Source of the DNA: Eledone cirrhosa
Taxonomy: Eukaryota
Direction of reading: 5' to 3'
DNA: 64,000 nucleotides
Assembly (NCBI GenBank): GCA_964016885.1
Contig: OZ024745.1
Location: 73,160,001 to 73,224,000, forward strand
Shown here: positions 7,585 through 62,089 of the stretch, one piece after another
Position numbering within the stretch: position 1 is the stretch's first letter
How the letters are laid out: every line of letters begins with the position of its first letter
Program-made: the position numbers and the translations under genes
Notes under the pieces: generated by a model
The model's input: the letters and a program-made list of their open reading frames with translations, nothing else
The model's database searches: none
What the model was told of the DNA's origin: nothing

Positions 7585-10500
7585 TCACGGTCGTGTGTCA
7601 TCGCTTTTGTTTGAGAGGTGTAATTGGGAAAGGTCGGCTTTTATCACCTCATCCCAGGTCATCTTGGGTCTCCCCACTTCGCGATTTCCATCGACTTCTA
7701 GTGCTCTGCACCTTTTTCTGCAGCTGTCATCCTTCATACGCATCACATGTCCATACCAATGCAACCGCCTCTCCTGCACACAGCATTTGATTCCTCTTAT
7801 GCTCAGTCTCTCTCTCAATTCATTTATGCTTTGTCGTTCGCGTATATTACTATTACACATCCATCGGAGCATGCAGGCTTCGTTTCTCTCTAATCTACGT
7901 AAGTCTTCCACCTTCAGCGCCCAAACCTCACTACAATGCAACATCGCTGTTCGGATACACGCATCATACAGTCTGCCTTTCATTTTGAGGGAGAAGCCTT
8001 TTGCAACTTGCAGTGGCAGTAGTTCCCTAAACTTCTTCCATCCCGTTCTTACCCTAGTTATTGTACTTTCTGAACACCCACCTCCGCTGCTAATTCGGTC
8101 ACCTAGGTAGCAGAAGCTGTCTACTGTTTCTACAGAGCCCTCCCAGAGATTGGTGGTACTTGTTTCCTGTGGCTGTTTGCTGCTTGCTGTCCCAGCACAG
8201 CTGCTGCACGTGAAGCCTACATTCTTAATTAAGCTTCCTGAGACCCCGCTACATCTCTTGTGTACCCATTGTTTGCATTTGGGGCAGAGCATAGAGTTCC
8301 TACCTACACCTTTCCTACATACTGAGCAAGGCCATTTCCCTGAGGGGATCTGGGTTTTGTTTTCTCGTCTACTTACAAGGACCTTAGTCTTTGTCATGTT
8401 GACTTTGAGACCCTTTCTTTCTAGTCCCTGCTTCCAAGTTTGGAATTTCTTCTCTAGTTCTACCATAGATTCAGCTATAAGTGCGAGGTCATCAGCATAC
8501 AGGAGTTCCCATGGGCATCCAGTCTTAAACTTCTCTGTTATTGCCTGCAGGACTATGATGAACAGGAGGAGGCTAAGAACAGAGCCCTGGTGGACACCAA
8601 CCTGTACGCTAAATTCCTCGCTATACTCATTGCTAATCCTAACTTTGCTGACTGCTCCCCTATACGTGGCTTGTACCGCTTTCACAACCCATTCATCTAC
8701 TCCTAGTTTTCTAAGAGCCCACCAGATTACAGCACGTGGAACTCTGTCAAAGGCTTTCTCGAGGTCGACAAATTCCAGGTAGAGTGGCTTACTTTTAGCT
8801 AGGTACTTTTCCTGTAACTGCCTGACAAGGAAGAGGGCATCAGTGGTGCCTCTTCCTGGTACAAACCCAAATTGCATCTCGTCTAGTTTCACCCGGTCCC
8901 TAATCAACTGTGCTATAACTCTTTCTGTTACTTTCATGACCTGGTCCATCAGCTTTATACCTCTATAGTTTCCTCTATCTAGTGCATCACCTTTACCTTT
9001 GTAGCAGTTGACAATGATGCTACTGCACCAATCTTTTGGTATGTCACTTAGTATTACCTGGTTAACAATACGTGTGGTTATAGTGTGACCTACAGACCCA
9101 GATGCCTTCAGCATCTCGGCAGCTATACCCGATGGACCGGTTGCCTTCCCCATATTCATATCTTTGATTGCCTTACTTACTACGCTGCTGCTGACTTGTA
9201 CTGCTGGCCCCTCTATAGGGTCTACTTGGGGTAGGGTCTCTTCTTCCCATGCATTCTCCTCATTTAGTAATCTATCATAATGACTCTTCCATGCATCTTT
9301 CTTCTCAGCACTTGTGAGGGCAAGCTCACCTTTATCATTCTGGATACACTTCTCTCCAATGACATCACAATTCTCTCTGACACACTGCCTCACAATCTTG
9401 AACACCTCCTGTTTCTGGTCCTCATGTTGCAAAACATGCTTGAATTTTCTATCCTCTGCTTCCCTCCTAGCTAAGTATACTTGTCGCCTAGCTTCCCTCT
9501 TGGTCTCTATGTAATGTACCCTGCTCCCCCCGTTCTTCCATTCTTTCCATGCCTGTCTCTTGGCCTTAACTGCCTCATCTACCTTATTGTTCCACCACCA
9601 AGTCACTCTCCTCCTGCTTGAGGTCTTACTCCAGCCACAGACCTCATCCGTCGCCTCTAGTAAGTTATTTTTTAGGAACTCCCAGTTCTCTTCTACATTG
9701 AATGTCTCCATCTGTTCTTCTTTACTGTCGTAGGCGTTGAGTAAAATATCTTTAAATCTGTTACTGGTTGAGGGGTCTTTCAGCTTCCAGATCTTTCTTC
9801 TCCAGGTTGGCCTCTGTTTCCAGGTTCGTCTAGTTCTGACTGTGAGGTCGCTGACAACTAAGCTATGTTGGGATGTACATTCCTCACTAGGGAAGGCTTT
9901 TGTGTTTATGACCGTCCATCTGTCACGTCCTCTGATGAGGATAAAATCTATCTGACTAGAGTGCTCCCCTGATCTATAGGTGATCAGGTGGTTGTCGGGT
10001 TTTTTGAAGTTTGTGTTACATATCGACATGTCATTGGCGTCGCAGAATTCTAGAAGTCTGAATCCTTCCTCATTTCTTGTGCCAACCCCATGGCCGCCAT
10101 GTACTCTATTGAAGCCGTCGCAGTGTTTACCTACGTGTCCGTTAAAATCTCCTGCGATGATTAGGAAGTCATTGTCGTTTGTTAGAGCAGTAGTGTGCAT
10201 TAGGGACTCGTAAAACCTATCCTTAAGTTCGTCTATCAACTCTGATTGGGGTGCGTAAGCTGATATTATTGTGGTAATTGTTTTATTCAGGACTAGTCTG
10301 AGTTTAATGATTCTTGCATTTACCCTGTACACGGAGATTACTTTATCTCCCCACTTGTCAGCTAGTAGTATACCTACATCACCCATCCCATCGTCATTTC
10401 CCACCCAGAAAAATTTGTAGCACTGACTTTTTTCTACAAGGACTCTAGCAGACTCTCCTCTCCATCTAGTCTCTTGCACACAGCATACATCAATTTCCTT

Positions 10501-10653
10501 TCGCTCTAGCATTTCTATGATTTCTCCTGCTCTTCCTTTCATTGTGCTTACATTGATGGTACCAACTCGGAGTTTTGGGCATTTGTCGACACTCGTAGGG
10601 AAGGGTCTCTGGATTGGCGCTTCACATGGGTGCTTGGTAGCTCGCAGATTCAT
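7585..10653 (-). CDS. RTE APE endonuclease-reverse transcriptase ORF with PHD-like insert; small indels, C-terminal frameshift
   Basis: 1022-aa ORF with GTINV, CVQETRW, AGDFNGH, FVDLEKAFD, LLYADDL, CSVC...CPKC-x4-H-x2-C...CSSC and RLHWYGHVMR. Its end (SNKSDDTRP) departs from the sister copies ([13 protein letters not shown]...). Confidence 0.9.
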   Translation of the reverse strand: MNLRATKHPCEAPIQRPFPTSVDKCPKLRVGTINVSTMKGRAGEIIEMLERKEIDVCCVQETRWRGESARVLVEKSQCYKFFWVGNDDGMGDVGILLADKWGDKVISVYRVNARIIKLRLVLNKTITTIISAYAPQSELIDELKDRFYESLMHTTALTNDNDFLIIAGDFNGHVGKHCDGFNRVHGGHGVGTRNEEGFRLLEFCDANDMSICNTNFKKPDNHLITYRSGEHSSQIDFILIRGRDRWTVINTKAFPSEECTSQHSLVVSDLTVRTRRTWKQRPTWRRKIWKLKDPSTSNRFKDILLNAYDSKEEQMETFNVEENWEFLKNNLLEATDEVCGWSKTSSRRRVTWWWNNKVDEAVKAKRQAWKEWKNGGSRVHYIETKREARRQVYLARREAEDRKFKHVLQHEDQKQEVFKIVRQCVRENCDVIGEKCIQNDKGELALTSAEKKDAWKSHYDRLLNEENAWEEETLPQVDPIEGPAVQVSSSVVSKAIKDMNMGKATGPSGIAAEMLKASGSVGHTITTRIVNQVILSDIPKDWCSSIIVNCYKGKGDALDRGNYRGIKLMDQVMKVTERVIAQLIRDRVKLDEMQFGFVPGRGTTDALFLVRQLQEKYLAKSKPLYLEFVDLEKAFDRVPRAVIWWALRKLGVDEWVVKAVQATYRGAVSKVRISNEYSEEFSVQVGVHQGSVLSLLLFIIVLQAITEKFKTGCPWELLYADDLALIAESMVELEKKFQTWKQGLERKGLKVNMTKTKVLVSRRENKTQIPSGKWPCSVCRKGVGRNSMLCPKCKQWVHKRCSGVSGSLIKNVGFTCSSCAGTASSKQPQETSTTNLWEGSVETVDSFCYLGDRISSGGGCSESTITRVRTGWKKFRELLPLQVAKGFSLKMKGRLYDACIRTAMLHCSEVWALKVEDLRRLERNEACMLRWMCNSNIRERQSINELRERLSIRGIKCCVQERRLHWYGHVMRMKDDSCRKRCRALEVDGNREVGRPKMTWDEVIKADLSQLHLSNKSDDTRP

Positions 10654-11150
10654 ATTTCATCTATTAATTCAGAGTTGCTCAAATTTATTCTCAGCTCATC
10701 CATCCATAACGGTAGGAAAATTCAGGGCTAGAAGAACAGTGGTGGTGGAATAATGGCAGGGTGTGTTGGGCTGGGACAGGGGAGGAGAGAGTTAGTTAGG
10801 TAGTAGTAGCAGAAGAAATGGCATGCTGAGGTTTGATTGGTCGAATAGGCTATGGTGGTGTGTGGGGGTGGGTGGGAGAGAAATTGTGAGGTAGGGAGAG
10901 AGGGTCGCCGTCAAGATGGATGACTGGACCGAAGCCAAATCAACTCTAGTGATTCATTTTAGCCTTTCAGAATAGAGTGTCTTATCTCTTCAATAGCTTC
11001 AAGATGAGTGAGGTGGAATGGGTGAAGAGGTAATGGGTGGCTTAGAGAGGGGGTAGCCATCATAGAGAGAGGGTCGCCGCATGGCAAAGTAGCCGATAGA
11101 ATACCGCATGGCAAAGTAGCGATAGAATACATCAACAATAATATTAATAA

Positions 11151-15417: not shown

Positions 15418-15640
15418 GTTGCCTATTCACAAGTTGTAACTTCAAATTCAATTCAGATTTCGATCAGTAATATTAATAGTTCCACTGTACAAGTCAGAGA
15501 TTCTCAAGGCAATGAAGTAGAGTTCAATGTTTCTGCCAATAGTACACATTTACAAATTCTATCTCTTCATCCTGGAGATTTATATAATATTACTGCTTTT
15601 AACAATTCTGGTAGTGGTTTCACATGGGAATTCTCCACAT
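15418..15640 (+). CDS. Host gene exon, N-terminal FN3-like domain (phase 0-1)
   Basis: tttacag|...|gtaagt. Open frame VAYSQVVTSNSIQISI...LQILSLHPGDLYNITAFNNSGSGFTWEFST with the FN3 L-x-P-G-x-x-Y motif. 223 nt, joins 17022 in frame. Confidence 0.8.
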
Positions 15641-17021: not shown

Positions 17022-17288
17022 TTCCATTGAAACCAACTAATGCCATCGTTACAAATGTTAAAACAAATAGTTCTACTATTGAATGGAAATTTAACGACAC
17101 AGCATCTTCTGGAAGTGAATGGTTAATTCAATACAAATATGGTAGCAATAATTACATAAATGAAACAAGTACCAAGGAAAACATAATATTAACCTCCTTA
17201 AGACCTGGTGAAAAATATGAAGTAAAAATATGGACTAAATCTAACAATAAACTCAGTGACTCAGATTTGAACACAAGTTTTGTTACTA
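17022..17288 (+). CDS. Host gene FN3 exon, array unit 1
   Basis: cttacag|ttcc...acta|gtaagt; 267 nt, phase 1-1; PLKPTN...IEW...LRPGEKYEVKIWT. Confidence 0.9.
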
Positions 17289-18154
17289 GTAAGTATATGA
17301 AGTGAAACTTTCTAAGATGTTTAAAATAGCTTATAAAAGATATTTTTTTAATATATTATGGCTTTTACCTAGGAAAAAATCTTTCCATATTTGATCCGAA
17401 ATCTTCAGTTAATGAAGAACCAAAACTATTGTTAATGTTTTTCAGTTTAGTGTTTCTGTTTTTGTGGCAGAACATCATATCTTTCACTTTCTCTGGCATA
17501 TAAAATCTCATAATCTACAGGTATAACTAGGTGGAAAAAAGTGCCCAGCCCACACTGTAAAGTTTTTTACGTGTCACAACAAAAATCACCTTGTCTACAC
17601 TGTAAAGGTGGTTGGCATTAGGGAGGGCATCCAGCTGTAGAAACCAGGCAAGAGACAGTTCAGTATGAGCAAGACATGGTCATCTGATCTAGCTTGTCTT
17701 ATAGCTGAACATGTCTAACCCATACTAGCATGGAAAAATAGTTGTTAAAAGGTGATGATAATGATATCTCCTGTAATGTTCTGTGGACAGTCTTCATTTG
17801 AATGTTAATTTAATGTTTCATATATGATATTAAATCTACATATGTCTATGTAACAGAATGCCAATAGTATCATTCTTTTGACAGTATATTTTGTATAAAG
17901 AGAGAACAAATAGTCCAACCCATGCCAACATGGAAAATTGGATGTAAAGTTAACATGATTAAATGTTGATAATTTAGATTAAAATTATATGTTTCTGAAT
18001 CTGAGAATCAGATTTCATATATTTAATCATTATTATTGAAAGTAATGTTATTGTATTAAAATCATGTTTTTACTTTAGAATAATGTAAATAATCAAACTG
18101 CAGGTTTCTCCCATAACATTGTGAAGTCATATTGTTTTATTTTATTTCTTACAG

Positions 18155-18421
18155 TTCCATTGGCACCAACTAATGCCATCGTTACAATTGTTACAACAAA
18201 TAGTGCTACTATTGAATGGAAATTTGACAAGACAACATCTTCTGGAAGTGAATGGTTAATTCAATACAAATATGGTAGCAATAATTACATAAATGAAACA
18301 AGTACCAAGGAAAACATAATATTAACCTCCTTAAGACCTGGTGAAAAATATGAAGTAAAAATATGGACTAAATCTAACAATAAACTCAGTGACTCAGATT
18401 TGAACACAAGTTTTGTTACCA
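18155..18421 (+). CDS. Host gene FN3 exon, array unit 2
   Basis: Same splice sites, 267 nt, open frame, FN3 W and LxPGxxY motifs. Confidence 0.88.
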
Positions 18422-19287
18422 GTAAGTATATGAAGTGAAACTTTCTAAGATGTTTAAAATAGCTTATAAAAGATATTTTTTTTATATATTATGGCTTTTA
18501 CCTAGGAAAAAATCTTTCCATATTTGATCCGAAATCTTCAGTTAATGAAGAACCAAAACTATTGTTAATGTTTTTCAGTTTAGTGTTTCTGTTTTTGTGG
18601 CAGAACATCATATCTTTCACTTTCTCTGGCATATAAAATCTCATAATCTACAGGTATAACTAGGTGGAAAAAAGTGCCCAGCCCACACTGTAAAGTTTTT
18701 TACGTGTCACAACAAAAATCACCTTGTCTACACTGTAAAGGTGGTTGGCATTAGGGAGGGCATCCAGCTGTAGAAACCAGGCAAGAGACAGTTCAGTATG
18801 AGCAAGACATGGTCATCTGATCTAGCTTGTCTTATAGCTGAACATGTCTAACCCATACTAGCATGGAAAAATGGTTGTCAAAAGGTGATGATAATGATAT
18901 CTCCTGTAATGTTCTGTGGACAGTCTTCATTTGAATGTTAATTTAATGTTTCATATATAATATTAAATCTACATATGTCTATGTAACAGAATACCAATAG
19001 TATCATTCTTTTGACAGTATATTTTGTATAAAGAGAGAACAAATAGTCCAACCCATGCCAACATGGAAAATTGGATGTAAAGTTAACATGATTAAATGTT
19101 GATAATTTAGATTAAAATTATATGTTTCTGAATCTGAGAATCAGATTTCATATATTTAATCATTATTATTGAAAGTAATGTTATTGTATTAAAATCATGT
19201 TTTTACTTTAGAATAATGTAAATAATCAAACTGCAGGTTTCTCCCATAACATTGTGAAGTCATATTGTTTTATTTTATTTCTTACAG

Positions 19288-19554
19288 TTCCATTGGCACC
19301 AACTAATGCCATCGTTACAATTGTTACAACAAATAGTGCTACTATTGAATGGAAATTTGACAAGACAACATCTTCTGGAAGTGAATGGTTAATTCAATAC
19401 AAATATGGTAGCAATAATTACATAAATGAAACAAGTACCAATGAAAACATAATATTAACCTCCTTAAGACCTGGTGAAAAATATGAAGTAAAAATATGGA
19501 CTAAATCTAACAATAAACTCAGTGACTCAGATTTGAACACAAGTTTTGTTACTA
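19288..19554 (+). CDS. Host gene FN3 exon, array unit 3
   Basis: Same splice sites, 267 nt, open frame. Confidence 0.88.
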
Positions 19555-20420
19555 GTAAGTATATGAAGTGAAACTTTCTAAGATGTTTAAAATAGCTTAT
19601 AAAAGATATTTTTTTTATATATTATGGCTTTTACCTAGGAAAAAATCTTTCCATATTTGATCCGAAATCTTCAGTTAATGAAGAACCAAAACTATTGTTA
19701 ATGTTTTTCAGTTTAGTGTTTCTGTTTTTGTGGCAGAACATCATATCTTTCACTTTCTCTGGCATATAAAATCTCATAATCTACAGGTATAACTAGGTGG
19801 AAAAAAGTGCCCAGCCCACACTGTAAAGTTTTTTACGTGTCACAACAAAAATCACCTTGTCTACACTGTAAAGGTGGTTGGCATTAGGGAGGGCATCCAG
19901 CTGTAGAAACCAGGCAAGAGACAGTTCAGTATGAGCAAGACATGGTCATCTGATCTAGCTTGTCTTATAGCTGAACATGTCTAACCCATACTAGCATGGA
20001 AAAATAGTTGTTAAAAGGTGATGATAATGATATCTCCTGTAATGTTCTGTGGACAGTCTTCATTTGAATGTTAATTTAATGTTTCATATATGATATTAAA
20101 TCTACATATGTCTATGTAACAGAATGCCAATAGTATCATTCTTTTGACAGTATATTTTGTATAAAGAGAGAACAAATAGTCCAACCCATGCCAACATGGA
20201 AAATTGGATGTAAAGTTAACATGATTAAATGTTGATAATTTAGATTAAAATTATATGTTTCTGAATCTGAGAATCAGATTTCATATATTTAATCATTATT
20301 ATTGAAAGTAATGTTATTGTATTAAAATCATGTTTTTACTTTAGAATAATGTAAATAATCAAACTGCAGGTTTCTCCCATAACATTGTGAAGTCATATTG
20401 TTTTATTTTATTTCTTACAG

Positions 20421-20687
20421 TTCCATTGGCACCAACTAATGCCATCGTTACAATTGTTACAACAAATAGTGCTACTATTGAATGGAAATTTGACAAGACA
20501 ACATCTTCTGGAAGTGAATGGTTAATTCAATACAAATATGGTAGCAATAATTACATAAATGAAATAAGTACCAAGGAAAACATAATATTAACCTCCTTAA
20601 GACCTGGTGAAAAATATGAAGTAAAAATATGGACTAAATCTAACAATAAACTCAGTGACTCAGATTTGAACACAATTTTTGTTACTA
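20421..20687 (+). CDS. Host gene FN3 exon, array unit 4
   Basis: Same splice sites, 267 nt, open frame. Confidence 0.88.
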
Positions 20688-21553
20688 GTAAGTATATGAA
20701 GTGAAACTTTCTAAGATGTTTAAAATAGCTTATAAAAGATATTTTTTTTATATATTATGGCTTTTACCTAGGAAAAAATCTTTCCATATTTGATCCGAAA
20801 TCTTCAGTTAATGAAGAACCAAAACTATTGTTAATGTTTTTCAGTTTAGTGTTTCTGTTTTTGTGGCAGAACATCATATCTTTCACTTTCTCTGGCATAT
20901 AAAATCTCATAATCTACAGGTATAACTAGGTGGAAAAAAGTGCCCAGCCCACACTGTAAAGTTTTTTACGTGTCACAACAAAAATCACCTTGTCTACACT
21001 GTAAAGGTGGTTGGCATTAGGGAGGGCATCCAGCTGTAGAAACCAGGCAAGAGACAGTTCAGTATGAGCAAGACATGGTCATCTGATCTAGCTTGTCTTA
21101 TAGCTGAACATGTCTAACCCATACTAGCATGGAAAAATGGTTGTCAAAAGGTGATGATAATGATATCTCCTGTAATGTTCTGTGGACAGTCTTCATTTGA
21201 ATGTTAATTTAATGTTTCATATATAATATTAAATCTACATATGTCTATGTAACAGAATACCAATAGTATCATTCTTTTGACAGTATATTTTGTATAAAGA
21301 GAGAACAAATAGTCCAACCCATGCCAACATGGAAAATTGGATGTAAAGTTAACATGATTAAATGTTGATAATTTAGATTAAAATTATATGTTTCTGAATC
21401 TGAGAATCAGATTTCATATATTTAATCATTATTATTGAAAGTAATGTTATTGTATTAAAATCATGTTTTTACTTTAGAATAATGTAAATAATCAAACTGC
21501 AGGTTTCTCCCATAACATTGTGAAGTCATATTGTTTTATTTTATTTCTTACAG

Positions 21554-21820
21554 TTCCATTGGCACCAACTAATGCCATCGTTACAATTGTTACAACAAAT
21601 AGTGCTACTATTGAATGGAAATTTGACAAGACAACATCTTCTGGAAGTGAATGGTTAATTCAATACAAATATGGTAGCAATAATTACATAAATGAAATAA
21701 GTACCAAGGAAAACATAATATTAACCTCCTTAAGACCTGGTGAAAAATATGAAGTAAAAATATGGACTAAATCTAACAATAAACTCAGTGACTCAGATTT
21801 GAACACAATTTTTGTTACTA
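21554..21820 (+). CDS. Host gene FN3 exon, array unit 5
   Basis: Same splice sites, 267 nt; protein identical to unit 4. Confidence 0.85.
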
Positions 21821-22686
21821 GTAAGTATATGAAGTGAAACTTTCTAAGATGTTTAAAATAGCTTATAAAAGATATTTTTTTTATATATTATGGCTTTTAC
21901 CTAGGAAAAAATCTTTCCATATTTGATCCGAAATCTTCAGTTAATGAAGAACCAAAACTATTGTTAATGTTTTTCAGTTTAGTGTTTCTGTTTTTGTGGC
22001 AGAACATCATATCTTTCACTTTCTCTGGCATATAAAATCTCATAATCTACAGGTATAACTAGGTGGAAAAAAGTGCCCAGCCCACACTGTAAAGTTTTTT
22101 ACGTGTCACAACAAAAATCACCTTGTCTACACTGTAAAGGTGGTTGGCATTAGGGAGGGCATCCAGCTGTAGAAACCAGGCAAGAGACAGTTCAGTATGA
22201 GCAAGACATGGTCATCTGATCTAGCTTGTCTTATAGCTGAACATGTCTAACCCATACTAGCATGGAAAAATGGTTGTCAAAAGGTGATGATAATGATATC
22301 TCCTGTAATGTTCTGTGGACAGTCTTCATTTGAATGTTAATTTAATGTTTCATATATAATATTAAATCTACATATGTCTATGTAACAGAATACCAATAGT
22401 ATCATTCTTTTGACAGTATATTTTGTATAAAGAGAGAACAAATAGTCCAACCCATGCCAACATGGAAAATTGGATGTAAAGTTAACATGATTAAATGTTG
22501 ATAATTTAGATTAAAATTATATGTTTCTGAATCTGAGAATCAGATTTCATATATTTAATCATTATTATTGAAAGTAATGTTATTGTATTAAAATCATGTT
22601 TTTACTTTAGAATAATGTAAATAATCAAACTGCAGGTTTCTCCCATAACATTGTGAAGTCATATTGTTTTATTTTATTTCTTACAG

Positions 22687-22953
22687 TTCCATTGGCACCA
22701 ACTAATGCCATCGTTACAATTGTTACAACAAATAGTGCTACTATTGAATGGAAATTTGACAAGACAACATCTTCTGGAAGTGAATGGTTAATTCAATACA
22801 AATATGGTAGCAATAATTACATAAATGAAACAAGTACCAAGGAAAACATAATATTAACCTCCTTAAGACCTGGTGAAAAATATGAAGTAAAAATATGGAC
22901 TAAATCTAACAATAAACTCAGTGACTCAGATTTGAACACAATTTTTGTTACTA
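22687..22953 (+). CDS. Host gene FN3 exon, array unit 6
   Basis: Same splice sites, 267 nt, open frame. Confidence 0.88.
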
Positions 22954-23819
22954 GTAAGTATATGAAGTGAAACTTTCTAAGATGTTTAAAATAGCTTATA
23001 AAAGATATTTTTTTTATATATTATGGCTTTTACCTAGGAAAAAATCTTTCCATATTTGATCCGAAATCTTCAGTTAATGAAGAACCAAAACTATTGTTAA
23101 TGTTTTTCAGTTTAGTGTTTCTGTTTTTGTGGCAGAACATCATATCTTTCACTTTCTCTGGCATATAAAATCTCATAATCTACAGGTATAACTAGGTGGA
23201 AAAAAGTGCCCAGCCCACACTGTAAAGTTTTTTACGTGTCACAACAAAAATCACCTTGTCTACACTGTAAAGGTGGTTGGCATTAGGGAGGGCATCCAGC
23301 TGTAGAAACCAGGCAAGAGACAGTTCAGTATGAGCAAGACATGGTCATCTGATCTAGCTTGTCTTATAGCTGAACATGTCTAACCCATACTAGCATGGAA
23401 AAATGGTTGTCAAAAGGTGATGATAATGATATCTCCTGTAATGTTCTGTGGACAGTCTTCATTTGAATGTTAATTTAATGTTTCATATATAATATTAAAT
23501 CTACATATGTCTATGTAACAGAATACCAATAGTATCATTCTTTTGACAGTATATTTTGTATAAAGAGAGAACAAATAGTCCAACCCATGCCAACATGGAA
23601 AATTGGATGTAAAGTTAACATGATTAAATGTTGATAATTTAGATTAAAATTATATGTTTCTGAATCTGAGAATCAGATTTCATATATTTAATCATTATTA
23701 TTGAAAGTAATGTTATTGTATTAAAATCATGTTTTTACTTTAGAATAATGTAAATAATCAAACTGCAGGTTTCTCCCATAACATTGTGAAGTCATATTGT
23801 TTTATTTTATTTCTTACAG

Positions 23820-24086
23820 TTCCATTGGCACCAACTAATGCCATCGTTACAATTGTTACAACAAATAGTGCTACTATTGAATGGAAATTTGACAAGACAA
23901 CATCTTCTGGAAGTGAATGGTTAATTCAATACAAATATGGTAGCAATAATTACATAAATGAAATAAGTACCAAGGAAAACATAATATTAACCCCCTTAAG
24001 ACCTGGTGAAAAATATGAAGTAAAAATATGGACTAAATCTAACAATAAATTCAGTGACTCAGATTTGAACACAAGTTTTGTTACTA
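23820..24086 (+). CDS. Host gene FN3 exon, array unit 7
   Basis: Same splice sites, 267 nt, open frame. Confidence 0.88.
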
Positions 24087-24951
24087 GTAAGTATATGAAG
24101 TGAATCTTTCTAAGATGTTTAAAATAGCTTATAAAAGATATTTTTTTATATGATATGGCTTTTACCTAGGAAAAAAATCTTTTCATATTTGATCCGAAAT
24201 CTTCAGTTAATGAAGAACCAAAACTATTGTTAATGTTTTTCAGTTTAGTGTTTCTGTTTTTGTGGCAGAACATCATATCTTTCACTTTCTCTGGCATATA
24301 AAATCTCATAATCTACAGGTATAACTAGGTTTAAAAAAGTGCCCAGCCCACACTGTAAAGTTTTTTACGTGTCACAACAAAAATCACCTTGTCGACAATG
24401 TAAAGGTGGTTGGCATTAGGGAGGGCATCCAGCTGTAGAAACCAGGCAAGAGACAGTTCAGTATGAGCAAGACATGGTCATCTGATCTAGCTTGTCTTAT
24501 AGCTGAACATGTCTAACCCATACTAGCATGGAAAAATAGTTGTTAAAGGTGATGATTATGATATCTCCTGTAATGTTCTGTGGACAGTCTTCATTTGAAT
24601 GTTAATTTAATGTTTCATATATAATATTAAATCTACATATGTCTATGTAACAGAATACCAATAGTATCATTCTTTTGACAGTATATTTTGTATAAAGAGA
24701 GAACAAATAGTCCAACCCATGCCAACATGGAAAATTGGATGTAAAGTTAACATGATTAAATGTTGATAATTTAGATTAAAATTATATGTTTCTGAATCTG
24801 AGAATCAGATTTCATATATTTAATCATTATTATTGAAAGTAATGTTATTGTATTAAAATCATGTTTTTATTTTAGAATAATGTAAATAATCAAACTGCAG
24901 GTTTCTCCCATAACATTGTGAAGTCATATTGTTTTACTTTATTTCTTACAG

Positions 24952-25218
24952 TTCCATTGCCACCAACTAATGCCATCGTTACAAATGTTACAACAAATAG
25001 TTCTACCATTGAATGGAAATTTGACAAGACAACATCTTCTGGAAGTGAATGGTTAATTCAATACAAATATGGTAGCAATAATTACATAAATGAAACAAGT
25101 ACCAAGGAAAACATAATATTAACCTCCTTAAGACCTGGTGAAGAATATGAAGTAAAAATATGGACTAAATCTAACAATAAATTCAGTGACTCAGATTTGA
25201 ACACAAGTTTTGTTACTA
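24952..25218 (+). CDS. Host gene FN3 exon, array unit 8
   Basis: Same splice sites, 267 nt, open frame. Confidence 0.88.
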
Positions 25219-26087
25219 GTAAGTATATGAAGTGAAACTTTCTAAGATGTTTAAAATAGCTTATAAAAGATATTTTTTTATATGATATTATGGCTTTTAA
25301 CTAGGAAAAAAATCTTTCCATATTTGATCCGAAATCTTCAGTTAATGAAGAACCAAAACTATTGTTAATGTTTTTCAGTTTAGTGTTTCTGTTTTTGTGG
25401 CAGAACATCATATCTTTCACTTTCTCTGGCATATAAAATCTCATAATCTACAGGTATAACTAGGTGGAAAAAAGTGCCCAGCCCACACTGTAAAGTTTTT
25501 TACGTGTCACAACAAAAATCACCTTGTCGACACTGTACAGGTGGTTGGCATTAGGGAGGGCATCCAGCTGTAGAAACCAGGCAAGAGACAGTTCAGTATG
25601 AGCAAGACATGGTCATCTGATCTAGCTTGTCTTATAGCTGAACATGTCTAACCCATACTAGCATGGAAAAATAGTTGTTAAAAGGTGATGATTATGATAT
25701 CTCCTGTAATGTTCTGTGGACAGTCTTCATTTGAATGTTAATTTAATGTTTCATATATAATATTAAATCTACATATGTCTATGTAACAGAATACCAATAG
25801 TATCATTCTTTTGACAGTATATTTTGTATAAAGAGAGAACAAATAGTCCAACCCATGCCAACATGGAAAATTGGATGTAAAGTTAACATGATTAAATGTT
25901 GATAATTTAGATTAAAATTATATGTTTCTGAATCTGAGAATCAGATTTCATATATTTAATCATTATTATTGAAAGTAATGTTATTGTATTAAAATCATGT
26001 TTTTATTTTAGAATAATGTAAATAATCAAACTGCAGGTTTCTCCCATAACATTGTGAAGTCATATTGTTTTATTTTATTTCTTACAG

Positions 26088-26354
26088 TTCCATTGCCACC
26101 AACTAATGCCACCGTTACAAATGTTACAACAAATAGTGCTTTTATTGAATGGAAATTTGACAACACAGCATCTTCTGGAAATGAATGGTTAATTCAATAC
26201 ACAAGTAATTTTGGCAGTTCCAAAAATATAACAAGTCACATGAAAAATATAACATTACAAATATCAGACGATGGTGCGAGATACAAAATAAATATATGGA
26301 CCATGTCTTACAATGTAACCAGTGAAAAATCTTTAAACACATCTTTTATTACTT
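26088..26354 (+). CDS. Host gene FN3 exon 9 (5' half array-like, 3' half unique)
   Basis: cttacag|...actt|gtaagt, 267 nt. Matches the array up to EWLIQY, then reads TSNFGSSKNITSHMKNITLQISDDGARYKINIWTMSYNVTS. Confidence 0.9.
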
Positions 26355-29396: not shown

Positions 29397-29520
29397 TTCC
29401 TAATCAAGTTTCTGATGTTAAAATGGATCCTATTGAAAGAAATATTACAGTTACTTGGCTCAAACGTAAAACATTTACTTATACAGTTTGTTTAACTGAT
29501 CTAGCTGATTGTGTTCTAAG
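29397..29520 (+). CDS. Host gene exon, first half of an FN3 domain (phase 1-2)
   Basis: ttttcag|ttcct...ctaag|gtaagt; PNQVSDVKMDPIERNITVTWLKRKTFTYTVCLTDLADCVL. Confidence 0.82.
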
Positions 29521-34575: not shown

Positions 34576-34691
34576 GAACAACAATAATTACACATTTCGC
34601 AACCTGATAGCTGGAAAAAAATACACTGTTTCTATTACTGTGCATTCTTATTCTCGAAACAGCAGTGTATATAAAATATCTAAAATAATTC
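34576..34691 (+). CDS. Host gene exon, second half of an FN3 domain (phase 2-1)
   Basis: ttttag|gaac...attc|gtaagt; NNNNYTFRNLIAGKKYTVSITVHSYSRNSSVYKISKII. The phase matches 29520. Confidence 0.85.
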
Positions 34692-35107
34692 GTAAGTCTT
34701 TGATAAAAATCTTACCATTGTTAATATTACTAAATGTGATTCAACACAATAATACTAACTTGAATATTAATTACTTAGAAGACTGAACTCTTGTTTCAAC
34801 ATCATAATGTAAGGCAGTATGTTGCCAATATCATATTTTATATTGAATGAATAGTTTCTATGATTTTCAAATACTTGTTATATGTCCTGTAAATTCTTAA
34901 AGGTGGCCTTAATTTGAAATTTTAAGGTCAAATTCGTTTTTACATAATTACATAATTTAAGTACAGCTGAAATTTCATAGCAAAATTATTTTTAACAACT
35001 TTTCTTACATGTATACTAAAATATGGATGAATGTTGATAAAGATATATTTTATTTCTCTTGTGACAGTGAGAGAGGAGGATATTAAATACATTTTCTATT
35101 TTTACAG

Positions 35108-35374
35108 CTCCATTGCCACCATCTCGTGTGATTAATGCAAGTATTACAAATAGTGTACTTTTCCTGGAATGGGATTTTAATGCCAATATATCTGTTGTTA
35201 GTGAATGGATTATTGAATACAAAATTGAAACTGTGAACAATTACACTAGTGTTAAAACAAACCTCACAAGCATACAATTAAAATTAACCGATGGTGTGGC
35301 ATATCAGTTTCGAATATGGACTATATCTCTTAATGTGACCAGTACATCTAATTTAACTTTTGGCCTTTTCACTG
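35108..35374 (+). CDS. Host gene FN3 exon (267 nt, phase 1-1), diverged paralog of the array exons
   Basis: tttacag|ctcca...actg|gtaagt; PLPPSRVINASITNSVLFLEWDF...SEWIIEY...DGVAYQFRIWTISLNVTS. Confidence 0.9.
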
Positions 35375-40839: not shown

Positions 40840-40970
40840 CTCCTGAGAAAGTATTGAATATTACTCATGTTGAAAATAATACTCACTTATCAATTCATTG
40901 GTCGCCTCCTCTACAATCTGATATTACAAAATACATTCTCGAGTATTCTGAAACATGCTGGAAACATAAA
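40840..40970 (+). CDS. Host gene exon, first half of an FN3 domain (phase 1-0)
   Basis: cattttag|ctcct...cataaa|gtaagt; PEKVLNITHVENNTHLSIHWSPPLQSDITKYILEYSETCWKHK. Confidence 0.85.
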
Positions 40971-45958: not shown

Positions 45959-48900
45959 TCATCATCATCATCATCATCACCGTTTTACGTCCGTTCTTCC
46001 ACGCTAGCATGGGTTAGACGGGTTGTCCTGTTGTGGGCAGTGTCTGGTCGGCTGACCATGCCTTGCTCATACAGGAACTGATCTGGCTTGATTTCTACAG
46101 CTGGATGCCCTTCCTAACACCAACCTCATTTACAGTGAGTGCTGGGTGCTTTTTCGTGGCGCCTACACGTCCACTTTACAGTGTGGGCTGGGTGCTTTTT
46201 TGCCGTGGCACCTCCACGACCACCTTGCGGTGGGGGGGGGGGGGGGGGGGGGGGGGCATATTGTTTATATGCTTCAGCATGTACCCATGGGAGGTCGGGT
46301 ACCCTGTATTACTGCGTGACGCCAGAAGTCACGGTCGTGTGTCATTGACTTTGAGAGGTGTAGTTGGGTAAGGTCGGCTTTTATCACCTCATCCCAAGTC
46401 ATCTTGGGTCTCCCCACTCCGCGGTTTCCATCAACTTCTAGTGCTCTGCACCTTTTTATGCAGCTGTCATCCTTCATACGCATCACATGTCCATACCAGC
46501 GTAACCGCCTCTCCTGCACGCAGCATTTGATTCCTCTTATGCTCAGTCTCTCTCTCAATTCATTTATGCTTTGTCGTTCACGTATATTACTGTTACACAT
46601 CCATCGGAGCATGCAGGCTTCGTTTCTCTCTAATCTACGTAAGTCTTCCACCTTCAGCGCCCAGGTCTCACTACCATGCAACATCGCTGTTCGGATACAC
46701 GCATCATACAGTCTGCCTTTCATTCTGAGGGAGAAGCCTTTTGCAGCTAGCAGTGGTAGTAGTTCCCTAAACTTCTTCCATCCCGTTCTTACCCTAGTTA
46801 TTGTACTTTCTGAGCACCCACCTCCGTTGCTAATTCGGTCACCTAGGTAGCAGAAGCTGTCTACTGTTTCTACAGGGCCCTCCCAGAGATTGGTGGTACT
46901 TGTTTCCTGTGGCTGTTTGCTTGCTGTTTCAGCACAGCTGCTGCATGTGAATCCTACATTCTTAATTAAGCTTCCTGAGATCCCGCTACATCTCTTGTGT
47001 ACCCATTGTTTGCATTTGGGGCAGAGAATGGAGTTCCTACCTACACCTTTCCTACATACTGAGCAAGGCCATTTCCTTGAGGGGATCTGGGTTCTGTTTT
47101 CTCGTCTACTTATAAGGACCTTAGTCTTTGTCATGTTGACTTTGAGGTCCTTTCTCTCTAGTCCCTGCTTCCAGGTTTGGAATTTATTCTCTAGTTCTAC
47201 CATAGATTCAGCTATGAGTGCGAGGTCATCAGCATACAGGAGTTCCCATGGGCATCCGGTCTTAAACTCCTCCGTTATTGCCTGCAGGACTATGATGAAC
47301 AGGAGAGGGCTAAGAACAGAGCCCTGGTGGACCCCAACCTGTACGCTAAATTCCTCGCTATACTCATTGCCAATCCTAACTTTGCTGACTGCTCCCCTAT
47401 ACATGGCTTGTACCGCTTTCACAAGCCATTCATCTACTCCTAGTTTTCTAAGAGCCCACCAGATTACTGCACGTGGAACTCTGTCAAAGGCTTTCTCAAG
47501 GTCGACAAATGCCAAGTAGAGTGGCTTACTTGTAGCTAGGTACTTTTCCTGTAATTGCCTCACAAGGAAGAGCGCATCAGTGGTGCCTTTCCCTGGAACA
47601 AACCCAAATTGCATCTCGTCTATATTCACCCGGTCCCTAATCAGCTGTGCTATAACTCTTTCTGTTACTTTCATGACCTGGTCCATCAACTTTATACCTC
47701 TATAGTTTCCTCTATCTAGTGCATCGCCTTTACCTTTGTAGCAGTTGACAATGATGCTACTGCACCAATCTTTTGGTATGGCCCCCTCTAGTATGACCTG
47801 GTTAACGATACGTGTGGTTATAGTGTCACCTACAGACCCAGATGCCTTCAGCATCTCGGCAGCTATACCCGATGGACCGGTTGCCTTCCCTATCTTCATA
47901 TCTCTGATTGCCTTACTTACTACGCTGCCGCTGACTTGTACTGCTGGTCCCTCTATAGGGTCTACGTGGGGTAGGGTCTCTTCTTCCCATGCATTCTCCT
48001 CATTTAGTAATCTATCATAATGACTCTTCCATGCATCTTTCTTCTCAGCACTTGTGAGGGCAAGCTCACCTTTATCATTCCGGATACACTTCTCTCCAAT
48101 GACATCACAACTATCTCTGACACACTGCCTCGCAATCTTGAATACCTCCTGTTTCTGGTCCTCACGTTGTAAAACATGCTTGAATTTTCTATCCTCTGCT
48201 TCCCTCCTAGCTAAGTATACTTGTCGCCTAGCTTCCCTCTTGGTCTCTATGTAATGTACCCTGCTCCCCCCGTTCTTCCATTCTTTCCATGCCTGTCTCT
48301 TGGCCTTGACTGCTTCATCTACCTTATTGTTCCACCACCAAGTCACTCTCCTCCTGCTTGAGGTCTTACTCCAGCCACAAACCTCATCCGTCGCCTCTAG
48401 TAAGTTATTTTTTTAGGAACTCCCAGTTCTCTTCTACGTTAAATGTCTCTATCTGTTCTTCTTTACTGTCGTAGGCGTTGAGTAAAATATCTTTAAATCT
48501 GTTACTGGTTGAGGGGACTTTCAGCTTCCAGATCTTTCTTCTCCAGGTTGGCCTCTGTTTCAGGGCTCGTCTAGTTCTGACCGTGAGGTCGCTGACAACT
48601 AAGCTATGTTGGGATGTACATTCCTCACTAGGGAAGGCTTTTGTGTTTACGACCGTCCATCTGTCACGTCCTCTGATGAGGATAAAATCTAACTGACTAG
48701 AGTGCTCCCCTGATCTATAGGTGATCAGGTGGTTGTCGGGTTTTTTAAAGTTTGTGTTACATATCGACATGTCATTGGCGTCGCAGAATTCTAGAAGTCT
48801 GAATCCTTCCTCACTCCTTGTGCCAACTCCATGGCCTCCATGTACTCTATTGAAGCCGTCGCAGTGTTTACCTACGTGTCCGTTAAAATCTCCTGCAATG

Positions 48901-49600
48901 ATTAGGAAGTCCTTGTCGTCTGTTAGAGCAGTAGTGTGTATTAGGGACTCGTAAAACCTATCCTTAAGTTCGTCTGACAGCCCCGATTGGGGTGCGTAAG
49001 CTGATATTATTGTGGTAATTGTCTTATTCAGGACTAGTCTGAGTTTAATGATTCTTGCATTTACCCTGTACACTGAGATTACTTTATCTACCCACTTGTC
49101 AGCTAATAGTATACCTACACCACCCATCCCATCGTCATTTCCCACCCAGAAAAATTTGTAGCACTGGCTTTTTCCTACAAGGACTCTAGCAGACCCTCCT
49201 CTCCATCTAGTCTCTTGCACACAGCATACATCAACTTCCTTTCGCTCTAGCATTTCTACGATTTCTCCTGCTCTTCCTTTCATTGAGCCTACATTGATGG
49301 TACCAACTCGGAGTTTTGGGCATTTGTCGACACTCGTAGGGGAGGGTCTCTGGGTTGGCGCTTCACGTGGGTGCTTGGTAGCTCGCAGATTCATATTTCA
49401 TCTATTGATTCAGAGTTGCTCGTGTATTCCCAGCTCATCCATCCATAACGGTGGGAAAATTGAGGGCTAGAAGGACAGTGGTGGTGGGGTAATGGCAGGG
49501 TGTGTTGGGATGCGCCAGAGGAGGAGAGAGTTAGTTAGGCAGGTAGTAGCAGCAGCAGCAGTGGAAATGGCATGCTAGGTTTGATTGGTCGAATAGACTA
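45959..49600 (-). mobile_element. RTE family B copy 2, complete ORF region with one frameshift; embedded in TA microsatellite
   Basis: ORFs 48405-49394 and 46274-48346 are collinear with the 1022-aa ORF. One extra T in a homopolymer at ~48408-48414. (ATG)n tail abuts (TA)n and the 5' end runs into (TA)n. Confidence 0.95.
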
Positions 49601-54541: not shown

Positions 54542-56855
54542 AGAATCTTAATTATGTTAACTTTAAATCTAACCATCCTACCAATATCAAGAGTGCTATA
54601 GTTAATAATATTGGAAATAGAATATCTAACATATCTTCTAATAAAAACATCTTTGATGCTAACGCCAATTACTATAATAACGCACTTTCTAAAGCCGGCT
54701 ATCCAGATAAAATCAAATATAATAAAGAAACAAATTCTAGGAAAACTTACAGTAGAATAATTAATCTTGACCATTCCAATAATTTTAATAAAAGACCTAG
54801 ATACAAAAACATAATCTGGTATAATGCTCCTTTCTCCATCTCTATTAATAACAATATTCCTAAATTATTTTTTAGTGCCTTAAATAAATGCTTCCCTCCC
54901 TCATATCTATAGTAAAATATTTAACAAACACACCATCAAATTTTCGTATTCTACATCCTCCAATATTTCCAACATCATCTCTAAACACAACAACAAAATA
55001 TTAAATACTAAATCTCTTCCTTCCAATATTGAATTTCATAATAACAGTAATAGTACTCCCGACGTCATTGTAAACCCTAGGCTAACTTCTGTAAACCCAA
55101 ATACAACGTCAAACACAACTTCGCTAAATGTTCATAATCCAACTCTAAATCAAGAAACTATTATTCCTATCGCAAACAACTTCTCCAATCCAATTCCTTC
55201 TATAGATAACACTAGATCACTCATTAATAATCTCTCTAATTGCAACTGCCACATTAAAAATAAATGTCCTCTCAACAACCATTGCCTCGATAAAAACTTA
55301 ATTTATGAATGTAAAATTATAACTAGCACCAATTCCTTCACCTATTTTGGCTCCACTTCCACCTCTTTTAAAGCTCGTCTCTATAATCATCATTCATCTT
55401 TCAAATACAAACTTAAAAGAACTAACACTGCTCTCTCAGAACTCATATGGTCCTTAAAAGACAAAAACATTAAATATAACATCTTTTGGAAAAAGATTTC
55501 TTCTGCATCCTCATACTTGAAAAGCTCTCTATCTAAAATCTGTAATCTCTGCCTAAATGAAAAATTTACCATTATCTCTAACCTAGAATCTATAATAAAT
55601 AGACGCTCAGATTTGTTTTCTATCTGCCTGCATAAATTCCATAGAACTTTTCACAAAGTATACAGTTAATATTCAATTCTTTATCAATTTAGAATCTTTT
55701 CTCAAAGGCACATATACATACACCTCTTTAAAATATACCCATCTACCTTACTTTAAAGGGCATTATACACTCTATAATACTTGTTTACTCATTACCCTCA
55801 TTCTATCTTCTCGTAAAATAATATTTGTTTTTGACATTTTAATATTCATCCGCAATCATTATTATTTTTTCTCTCTATCATAAATCTTTTTAATCTCAAT
55901 TTCATCCTTCATTTATTATTATTTTTTTCTCCCCATCAACGAACTCATTATTAATACATATCAATTCAATATACAAACTTTAACTTCACATTATTTTTCT
56001 CAAATCCTTCTACACTTCTCAAATCCTTCTACCTTAACAATTTTTCTCTTCGCTAATTTTGAAATTGCCACAATACATACATTTCTTCTTTTGACGTTAG
56101 AATATTCACCCACAATTATTATTTTTTTCTCTCTATCTTCATACATAATTTCCCTTCGTTAATTTTCAAATTCCTTTAATTTATACATTATCTTCCAACG
56201 GTTCCCAACCTCTCTATATTAAAACAATATATCTTTTTCTCAGTTATAAAAACTATCTCTTTCTCTCTATCACCCATCTCTCCCTCTCCACCTTCACTCT
56301 CATCTCCTCCCCCCTTTTTTTTTCATCCTTTCCACCCCACCCTCCCTAAATAAAATATTTTTTCCTCGCACATATCCTCCCTTCGTTAATTTTCAAAATT
56401 TTTAATTTATACAGTATCTTCCAACGGTTTTCAACCCCTCTATGTAAAAAATATATCTCCTCTCAGTTATAAAAACTATCTCTTTCTCTCTATCACCCAT
56501 CTCTCCCTCTCATCTCCTTCCCTTTTCATCCTTCTCCCCCCCCCCTCTCTAAATAAAATATTTTTCCCAATATCACACATCAATCTAAAACCACTTTTCA
56601 TATGTTGATTTAAAACTGCACTATCAACAAGTGTTTTTTTAGCCTTCATATCATGTTCTCCTGTTTTATCTGATGAAAACACAAATATTATTGCTTGATG
56701 ATGTTTGTTTTTGAAATGCGCATAATAAAATATATGGAACTCCTTTAACCATCTTTTGATCTTATATTATGCATACTCCAGTCCCACAAACTGTAGAGTG
56801 CTTCTTATCCGATATCTGCATTGCTTTATTGTACTACAATAAAACTCACCTCCTA
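54540..56855 (+). mobile_element. 5'-truncated Penelope-like element (RT thumb/linker + GIY-YIG endonuclease + 3' region with hammerhead)
   Basis: YVNFKSNHP...RISNISS...ALSKAGY...IIWYNAPFS, a frameshift near 54910, then CNC..KNKCPLNNHC..KNLIYEC...TYFGSTSTSFKARLYNH...CNLCLNEK...C.H, stop at 55667-55669. ~227-bp tandem duplication in the 3' UTR; (TA)n on both sides. Confidence 0.88.
56655..56740 (+). ncRNA. Type I hammerhead ribozyme in the Penelope-like 3' end
   Basis: tgttttat-CUGAUGA(56670-56676), long stem II caaatattatt(gctt)gatgatgtttg, GAAA(56713-56716)-t(gcgc)a-UA-ataaaata. Palindromic UGCGCA stem III; AUA site, cleavage after 56724. Confidence 0.8.
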
Positions 56856-58724: not shown

Positions 58725-59183
58725 ATATCCTCTATGAGGTCACTAAACCTGCTAGAAACAGCAGCTAACTCTCCCCCATATCACACCACTTTCTACTGTC
58801 TTAAATTTAGAAAGCACATATCCTCTGAGGTTACTAAACCTGCTAGAAACAGCAGCTAACTCTCCCCCATATCACACCCCTCCCTACTGTCTTAAATTTA
58901 GAAAACATATCTTCTATGAGGTCACTAAACCTGCTAGAAACAGCAGCTAACTCTCCCCCATATCACACCACTCCCTACTGTCTTAAATTTAGAAAACATA
59001 TCTTCTATGAGGTCACTAAACCTGCTAGAAACAGCAGCTAACTCTCCTCCATATCACACCACTCCCTACTGTCTTAAATTTAGAAAACACATATCCTCTA
59101 TGAGGTCACTAAACCTGCTAGAAACAACAGCTAACTCTCCCTCATATCATAACCCTCCCTACTGTCTTAAATTTAGAAAACAC
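58725..59183. repeat. ~91-bp minisatellite, 5 copies
   Basis: atatcctctatgaggtcactaaacctgctagaaacagcagctaactctcc...ctactgtcttaaatttagaaaac starts at about 58725, 58818, 58907, 58998 and 59091. Confidence 0.92.
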
Positions 59184-59496
59184 ACAGACAACCATGCAGA
59201 ACAACTCCATCGCAGCTCTGTTGTTCGGCTGGTATCGTCTACGCGCGTGTTGCGCAAGTACTGTGAAACAATAAATTTCAACACTTTTTTGCACAGAGAT
59301 AATATCCATAGGCGAAACTACAAGTGTCACTGCTGGCGCAGCTTCTGCTTCCAGGTCTGCAATTCATTCACCCAGTGCCTGGCAGACAAAAAAGTGCTGC
59401 CATAAAATGGGTGGTGCAACCTAGCTTTGGTAACTTAATGACCCCGAGCAATGCCGCGCTTTAATACTAGTATATATATATATATATGTATATAAA

Positions 59497-62065: not shown

Positions 62066-62089
62066 ATTATATATATAAAAGTTATTTAT

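What the first reader, a model, noticed from the sequence alone, without database searches (positions are those of the whole stretch)
17022..26354. Differences between array exons toggle N-glycosylation sequons, in all four combinations
Seen: among internal units 2-7 the only amino-acid differences shared by several units are NET/NEI and NTS/NTI, and each destroys an N-x-S/T sequon. They occur as NET+NTS (units 2, 3), NEI+NTI (4, 5), NET+NTI (6) and NEI+NTS (7). Edge-unit differences also hit sequons (NVT vs IVT/NVK, NSS vs NSA, NDT vs DKT). Sequons per exon, units 1-9: 4, 2, 2, 0, 0, 1, 1, 4, 6. I saw few synonymous changes. Inference: four haplotypes imply inter-unit conversion or recombination, and the variation could amount to a glycosylation pattern along the stalk, possibly under selection. 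Numbers are small and sequons are dense, so chance is possible.
Basis: partly seen in the sequence, partly recalled or inferred. Interest (0 to 1): 0.7.

Follow-up and report, generated by a model that had tools for sequence, protein, structure and literature searches.

The report
Octopus receptor repeats shedding sugar sites
In an octopus cell-surface receptor gene family, one exon has been copied many times in a row, and its copies have lost sugar-attachment sites several times more often than chance predicts, likely through selection, while the mixing of variants between copies is ordinary recombination.

Summary
The four combinations are ordinary: 28 of 105 informative site pairs, intron pairs included, show all four. 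The array sits at the N-terminal tip, not a stalk. It lies in a partial duplicate of an octopod Ptp10D-like receptor phosphatase that has no transmembrane or PTP exon in this assembly.

The sequon bias survives testing as net loss, not toggling. In the amplified unit type (window plus paralog B), 9 of 21 amino-acid changes destroy a sequon, against 2.4-3.3 expected; without the two flagged variants it is 7 of 19, p 0.005-0.015. Sequon-changing alleles run at 7.7x the intron rate, other alleles at 1.1-1.2x. O. vulgaris versus O. sinensis agrees (8 of 25, 3.6 expected). Non-amplified units, Argonauta repeats and non-array exons show no significant excess.

The two flagged alleles were not seen in any run laid, though those tests were weak. 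Best reading: concerted evolution plus likely selection for glycan loss.

The parts
15418..15640 (+). Exon for the first mature FN3-like domain, spliced to the array
   Evidence: tblastn with O. vulgaris and O. bimaculoides proteins; splice sites read; its 3' end appears as a loose end joined to an array exon in run X4
17022..17288 (+). Array exon 1 (FN3), 4 sequons
18155..18421 (+). Array exon 2, NET+NTS
19288..19554 (+). Array exon 3, NET+NTS, private K50N
20421..20687 (+). Array exon 4, no sequon (variant bases at 20565 and 20676)
   Evidence: seven-strand model, mean pLDDT 84.9
21554..21820 (+). Array exon 5, no sequon (21698, 21809); whole 1133-bp unit identical to unit 4
22687..22953 (+). 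Array exon 6, NET+NTI (22942); unit differs from unit 5 by one base
23820..24086 (+). Array exon 7, NEI+NTS (23964); carries several paralog-B-like alleles
24952..25218 (+). Array exon 8, 4 sequons
26088..26354 (+). Terminal exon 9, 6 sequons; first ~115 nt like the array, the rest old and divergent; near-identical to the last exon of paralogs B and C
17289..26087 (.). Eight homogenised introns (865-869 bp), each with a high-copy interspersed repeat; used as the neutral yardstick
29397..29520 (+). Downstream ectodomain exon (first half of a short FN3 domain); ends approximate
34576..34694 (+). Downstream ectodomain exon (second half); ends approximate
35108..35374 (+). Divergent single FN3 exon, sequon-rich, used as outgroup; absent from paralog B
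40840..40970 (+). Downstream ectodomain exon; ends approximate

Best explanation
This is a recombining tandem array of one FN3 exon near the N-terminus of a partial duplicate of an octopod Ptp10D-like receptor phosphatase, and the amplified exon has lost N-glycosylation sequons faster than chance, likely under selection. Shown: unequal crossing-over and conversion copy and mix the units, which explains the four combinations and the older alleles at the edges. Shown statistically, on small numbers: sequon-destroying changes are in excess in the amplified unit type. Inferred: selection favours a barer protein surface on a multivalent, membrane-distal contact domain, either to expose it to a partner or to remove glycans that a microbe or lectin binds; conversion would then spread each loss through the array. 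Inferred: the window's copy would be secreted, since it has a signal-peptide exon but no TM or PTP exon.
For: Recombination: 28 of 105 informative pairs in units 1-8 are four-gamete, two of them intron-intron. Paralog B has a higher-order duplication (B4=B9, B5=B10, B3 vs B8 one base), and exon numbers are 9, 14 and 3 in W, B and C. Sequon loss: 9 of 21 changes, expected 2.55 (uniform), 2.43 (base type), 2.96 (site variability in other cephalopods) and 3.30 (same residue), p 2e-4 to 9e-4; 7 of 19 without the flagged two, p 0.005-0.015. Pooled over all array units with no grouping: 14 of 39, p 0.003; 16 of 47 with alleles shared with terminal exons added, p 0.002; 12 of 37 without the flagged two, p 0.016 (uniform nulls). 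Private alleles against the intron rate (28 of 862): synonymous 1.2x, other nonsynonymous 1.1x, sequon-changing 7.7x (p 5e-5), 5.5x without the flagged two (p 0.003). Best of 143 decoy motifs without N-x-T: p 0.03, against 2.5e-4 for N-x-S/T. The same sequons are lost by different mutations: N46 by T48I (W) and T48K (B), N83 by S85I (W) and N83H (C2), N11 by N11I and T13K. O. sinensis has I where O. vulgaris has T at the same position 48. O. vulgaris vs O. sinensis ectodomain: 8 of 25 differences change a sequon, 3.64 expected, p 0.007. Expression: run X4 covers only the exon, has exon-exon loose ends, and holds contigs that match only W2-W7 among the 26 units.
Against: The T alleles at 20565 and 20676 were seen in none of the 8 runs laid. 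7 of 7 raw reads had C at 20565 and 9 of 9 had G at 20676, from few start points, in other samples, several looking like paralogs; contigs drop such variants. My first out-of-sample test, on within-type variation in B and C, was not significant (4 of 12, p 0.13-0.30). No significant excess in non-amplified C and B units (4 of 18), Argonauta repeats (best pair 3 of 8, p 0.28) or non-array exons (3 of 11, p 0.20). The amplified/non-amplified split was made after seeing the data. Stem changes alone are not significant (3 of 8, p 0.06-0.27). In the pooled set a T-x-x-x-[E/S] decoy scores as well as the sequon. Overall synonymous deficit is borderline (7 of 58, p 0.053). Backgrounds were reconstructed by hand under recombination. 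No glycan occupancy, ligand or tissue data.
Confidence: 0.5

Rival explanations
1. Neutral turnover: the array is unconstrained, sequon residues sit on exposed, tolerant strand faces, and a small sample happened to hit them.
For: Non-sequon amino-acid alleles occur at the intron rate, so there is little purifying selection. Several sets show no excess. The window copy lacks TM and PTP exons and may be dispensable. Counts are small.
Against: Neutrality caps the rate at the intron rate, yet sequon-changing alleles run 5.5-7.7x above it. Same-residue and site-weighted nulls are still rejected. A second species pair agrees.
Confidence: 0.27
2. Selection acts on the exposed surface itself (beta-favouring or hydrophobic Ile/Tyr on outward strand positions), and sequon loss is a by-product.
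For: Five of the nine losses are changes to Ile and one to Tyr. Positions 45-48, 55 and 85 lie in predicted strands.
Against: The other three losses go to Lys (T13K, N25K, T48K), and C2 has N83H. Non-sequon Asn/Ser/Thr rarely change, and the same-residue null is rejected (p 3e-4).
Confidence: 0.1
3. The two flagged alleles, or their arrangement in four combinations, are assembly or polishing products.
For: Not seen in any run laid. A scaffold gap lies about 45 kb upstream of the array. Multi-mapping polish can shuffle alleles among units (general knowledge).
Against: Each allele recurs in three units that otherwise show no indel noise. Contigs of one sample differ between runs at two other variable sites, so they hide minority alleles. 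The losses shared by the amplified units are present in independent contigs, and the excess remains without the flagged two.
Confidence: 0.08
4. One reading: a maintained, position-specific glycosylation code along a receptor stalk.
For: Counts fall from the edges to the centre in W, and the sequon excess is real.
Against: The array is N-terminal and this copy has no TM exon. Paralogs show other patterns. Edge units keeping older alleles is expected in recombining arrays (general knowledge). The four combinations arise in 18 of 20 shuffles.
Confidence: 0.05

Closest known systems
R3 receptor tyrosine phosphatases (Ptp10D/PTPRJ/PTPRB class); octopod Ptp10D-like proteins CAI9718161.1, XP_036370794.1, XP_014781630.1
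   Same: Signal peptide, FN3-only ectodomain and phase 1:1 FN3 exons (PMC5336234, passages read); exon-by-exon homology to the O. vulgaris protein. Paralog B has the TM exon and one PTP domain.
   Different: The window copy lacks the juxtamembrane, TM and PTP exons. A single FN3 exon is amplified, whereas O. vulgaris repeats a two-domain module three times. Paralog B reads WPG where O. vulgaris has WPD.
Avian Trojan family (Mystran, Trojan, Thracian; PMC4372362, abstract and passages read)
   Same: Three clustered FN3 genes, one a receptor phosphatase and two without a PTP domain; gene conversion between ectodomains; positive selection outside the cell with a conserved interior.
   Different: The Trojan proteins are membrane-bound and carry CCP domains. 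The passages read report no exon array and no sequon-directed bias. An analogy, not homology.
Argonauta hians protein GAB1597277.1
   Same: Homologous FN3 domains amplified as near-identical tandem modules.
   Different: Two-domain 171-aa module; sequons kept (10-11 per module) with no significant excess of sequon changes.
Tandem exon arrays under concerted evolution, such as LPA kringle IV-2 and abalone VERL (recalled, no call)
   Same: Near-identical exon-intron units, copy-number change, divergent edge units.
   Different: I know of no report of directional sequon loss in them; not checked.

Membership tests
R3 receptor tyrosine phosphatase | Ectodomain of FN3 repeats after a signal peptide | tested here: met
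   Pfam fn3; signal-peptide exon 8.6 kb upstream of the window with ATG and donor intact
R3 receptor tyrosine phosphatase | FN3 domains mostly in single phase 1:1 exons | tested here: met
   feature from PMC5336234
R3 receptor tyrosine phosphatase | Single transmembrane segment | tested here: not met
   TM exon found once in the genome, in paralog B; W-B homology ends near window position 96,200. Met for B, not for the window copy
R3 receptor tyrosine phosphatase | Single cytoplasmic PTP domain | tested here: not met
   PTP exons only in B; one search agrees but used a stricter first look
R3 receptor tyrosine phosphatase | Catalytic motifs (HCSAGxGR, WPD loop) in paralog B | tested here: inconclusive
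   HC|SAGVGR intact; WPD reads WPG; activity untested
Tandem exon array under concerted evolution | Near-identical exon plus intron units | tested here: met
   units 2-6 differ by 0-6 bases in the pairs compared
Tandem exon array under concerted evolution | Exchange between units | tested here: met
   28 of 105 pairs four-gamete; higher-order repeat in B
Tandem exon array under concerted evolution | Copy-number variation between individuals | not testable with these tools
   no long reads; paralogs differ (9, 14, 3 exons)
Positive selection on glycosylation sites | Sequon-changing alleles above the neutral rate | tested here: met
   7.7x intron rate in the amplified unit type; not met in non-amplified units
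Positive selection on glycosylation sites | Alleles verified in raw reads | tested here: inconclusive
Positive selection on glycosylation sites | Sequons occupied by glycans | not testable with these tools
   needs glycoproteomics

The most novel reading that the evidence does not exclude
Octopods tune a Ptp10D-like receptor and a secreted decoy paralog by amplifying one distal FN3 exon while selection strips its N-glycans one sequon at a time (about 8 to 0), with conversion spreading each loss through the array and between paralogs: a host-side reversal of glycan-shield evolution, caught in progress.
Probability: 0.3. Interest if true: 0.75.

Novelty: new variant of a known kind. Interest (0 to 1): 0.5.

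Why it matters
If real, it is a rare case where selection on a post-translational motif can be read against a built-in neutral control: synonymous and other amino-acid alleles sit at the intron rate while sequon-changing alleles are several-fold higher. It would point to an unknown partner, microbe or lectin acting on the tip of a fast-evolving octopus receptor, and to a possible secreted decoy. Natural domain variants with 0, 1, 2, 4 and 7-8 sequons form a ready series for testing what glycans do on an R3 ectodomain.

Tried and rejected
Four combinations as a sequon-specific signal: rejected. W as an unmerged allele of B: a gap and an inversion lie between them, but there are three copies, W's 600 bp upstream of the ATG differ from B far more than C does (63 mismatches and 64 gap positions, against 15 and 2), and W runs on into unrelated sequence; judged unlikely, not excluded. 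Verification in reads: no RNA holder listed; contigs and RAD reads were too weak to confirm or refute the T alleles. The single-exon homolog search found nothing, and the search with the Argonauta protein found only itself. The intron counts in the last two rows were inflated by longer introns (B7, C) and were redone without them. Left out: eight alleles shared with terminal exons (added back), the N53 deletion of the 264-nt B units, and the divergent 3' part of the terminal exons. Earlier findings of the scan: none. No complex prediction or fold search was run. Literature searches listed no paper on this locus or on sequon loss in an exon array; I saw listings only, the library lacks most subscription papers, and no supplements were opened.
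Full report
1. Observation. The region holds nine 267-nt, phase 1-1 exons in units of 1132-1136 bp. The three array exons scanned match Pfam fn3, and unit 4 is predicted as a seven-strand domain. Units 2-7 also hold three amino-acid changes that miss sequons and one synonymous change.

2. The gene. A genome search found 26 copies of the exon in three arrays on one contig: W (the window, 9 exons), B (14) and C (3). Long blocks are mostly 96-99% identical between copies; W is inverted and separated from B by a 200-N gap. A profile search led to an Argonauta protein and an O. bimaculoides fragment, and from there to O. vulgaris, O. sinensis and O. bimaculoides proteins named Ptp10D-like or receptor PTP H-like. 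Mapping the O. vulgaris protein gives W a signal-peptide exon, one domain, the array and further ectodomain exons. The juxtamembrane, TM and PTP exons were found only in B. So the array is N-terminal, and W is an ectodomain-only duplicate in this assembly. Run X4 has no library record, but it covers only the exon and its loose ends match neighbouring exons, so I infer it is RNA. Two of its contigs match only W2-W7 among the 26 units, which suggests W is transcribed and spliced.

3. The four combinations. Of 15 informative sites in units 1-8, 28 of 105 pairs show all four gametes, including two intron-intron pairs. Shuffling gives all four in 18 of 20 arrangements. B carries a higher-order duplication. 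This is ordinary unequal crossing-over and conversion. Site 145 conflicts with ten other sites, which fits a short conversion tract or a repeat mutation in unit 7 (inference).

4. Is the sequon bias real? The flagged pair alone gives p 0.002-0.012 but is post hoc; all five changes in units 2-7 give 2 of 5, p 0.015-0.09. My first out-of-sample test, on B and C variation, gave 4 of 12, p 0.13-0.30. Polarising with the terminal exons, C, the 264-nt B units, the exon at 35108 and other species shows the sequon-rich state to be older at most positions; N6 and S17 are ambiguous and were not counted as losses. In the amplified unit type shared by W and B, 9 of 21 changes are losses and 1 is a gain, with 2.4-3.3 losses expected under four nulls (p 2e-4 to 9e-4); without the flagged two, 7 of 19 (p 0.005-0.015). 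Pooling all units removes the post hoc grouping: 14 of 39 (p 0.003), 16 of 47 with alleles shared with terminal exons (p 0.002), 12 of 37 without the flagged two (p 0.016). Against the intron rate of 28 in 862, private alleles run at 1.2x (2 synonymous), 1.1x (6 other) and 7.7x (7 sequon-changing; p 5e-5). Among 162 motifs the top 12 all contain N-x-T, and the best of 143 without it has p 0.03; in the pooled set one unrelated decoy ranks above the sequon. O. vulgaris vs O. sinensis gives 8 of 25, 3.64 expected, p 0.007, with gains as well as losses, and 24 of the 25 differences in the N-terminal half of the ectodomain. Against: non-amplified units 4 of 18, Argonauta best pair 3 of 8, non-array exons 3 of 11, none significant. 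Fisher's combination of the four sets other than the amplified type gives p 0.011, driven by the species pair.

5. Are the alleles real? The shared losses N11I and N25K are in X4 contigs with no mismatch to W2-W7, and N39Y, T45I and T55I are in contigs of X1-X4. The two flagged T alleles are in none of the 8 runs. Contigs keep one path (sites 231 and one intron site differ between runs of one sample), and raw RAD reads covered the sites only 7 and 9 times, from few starts. This is unresolved.

6. Mechanism. Shown: amplification and mixing by recombination; an excess of sequon loss in the amplified type. Inferred: selection for a barer multivalent surface at the receptor tip, with W as a predicted secreted form sharing that surface. 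Partner, tissue and glycan occupancy are unknown. Confidence 0.5; neutral chance 0.27; other rivals as listed.

7. Known relatives. R3 architecture and 1:1 exon phase follow PMC5336234 (passages). The avian Trojan cluster is the closest analogy in layout and evolution (PMC4372362, abstract and passages). Sequon gain and loss by single variants is common in human genes (PMC3346765, abstract only), so individual toggles are ordinary. Eight literature searches listed nothing on this locus. W is not filed as an R3 member, because it fails the TM and PTP tests.

8. Verdict. Observation confirmed, interpretation partly supported, a new variant of a known kind, interest 0.5.

Noticed in passing
L022 (G000:C5:72908768-72908914, minus), paralog B: The WPD loop of the only PTP domain in the cluster reads WPG, while the HC-SAGVGR motif is intact. 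It may be weak or a substrate trap (recalled from PTP1B work, untested).
   Followed up: no
window 35108-35374: This FN3 exon is present in W and C but missing from the full-length paralog B.
   Followed up: partly
L009-L010 (G000:C5:73003209-73019563): Paralog B mixes sequon-rich 264-nt units with sequon-poor 267-nt units and has a higher-order duplication (B3-5 matches B8-10).
   Followed up: yes
P0001, P0152, P0154: The same domain family was amplified independently as a two-domain module in Argonauta (5 or more copies) and O. vulgaris/O. sinensis (3 copies).
   Followed up: partly
L025 (about 8.6 kb upstream of the window): W's signal-peptide exon and upstream DNA are more diverged from B and C than the gene body is, which suggests an older duplicate homogenised later.
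   Followed up: partly
window 20515-20687, run X4: The main exon contig matches none of the 26 assembled units exactly: a merged path, or a different array allele in that sample.
   Followed up: partly
window 34576-34694: Both amino-acid differences among W, B and C in this exon change a sequon, one gain and one loss.
   Followed up: yes
window 20900-21180 and equivalents: A very high-copy interspersed repeat sits in every array intron.
   Followed up: no
window 7585-10656, 46274-49397, 59929-62085: Reverse-transcriptase LINE copies, one with a 1023-aa open frame; RTE-like by recall, untested.
   Followed up: no
window 54884-55669: A 261-aa frame resembling a Penelope-type GIY-YIG endonuclease (recalled, untested), beside long TA-rich arrays.
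   Followed up: no
window 58725-59184: Five tandem copies of a 91-bp unit.
   Followed up: no
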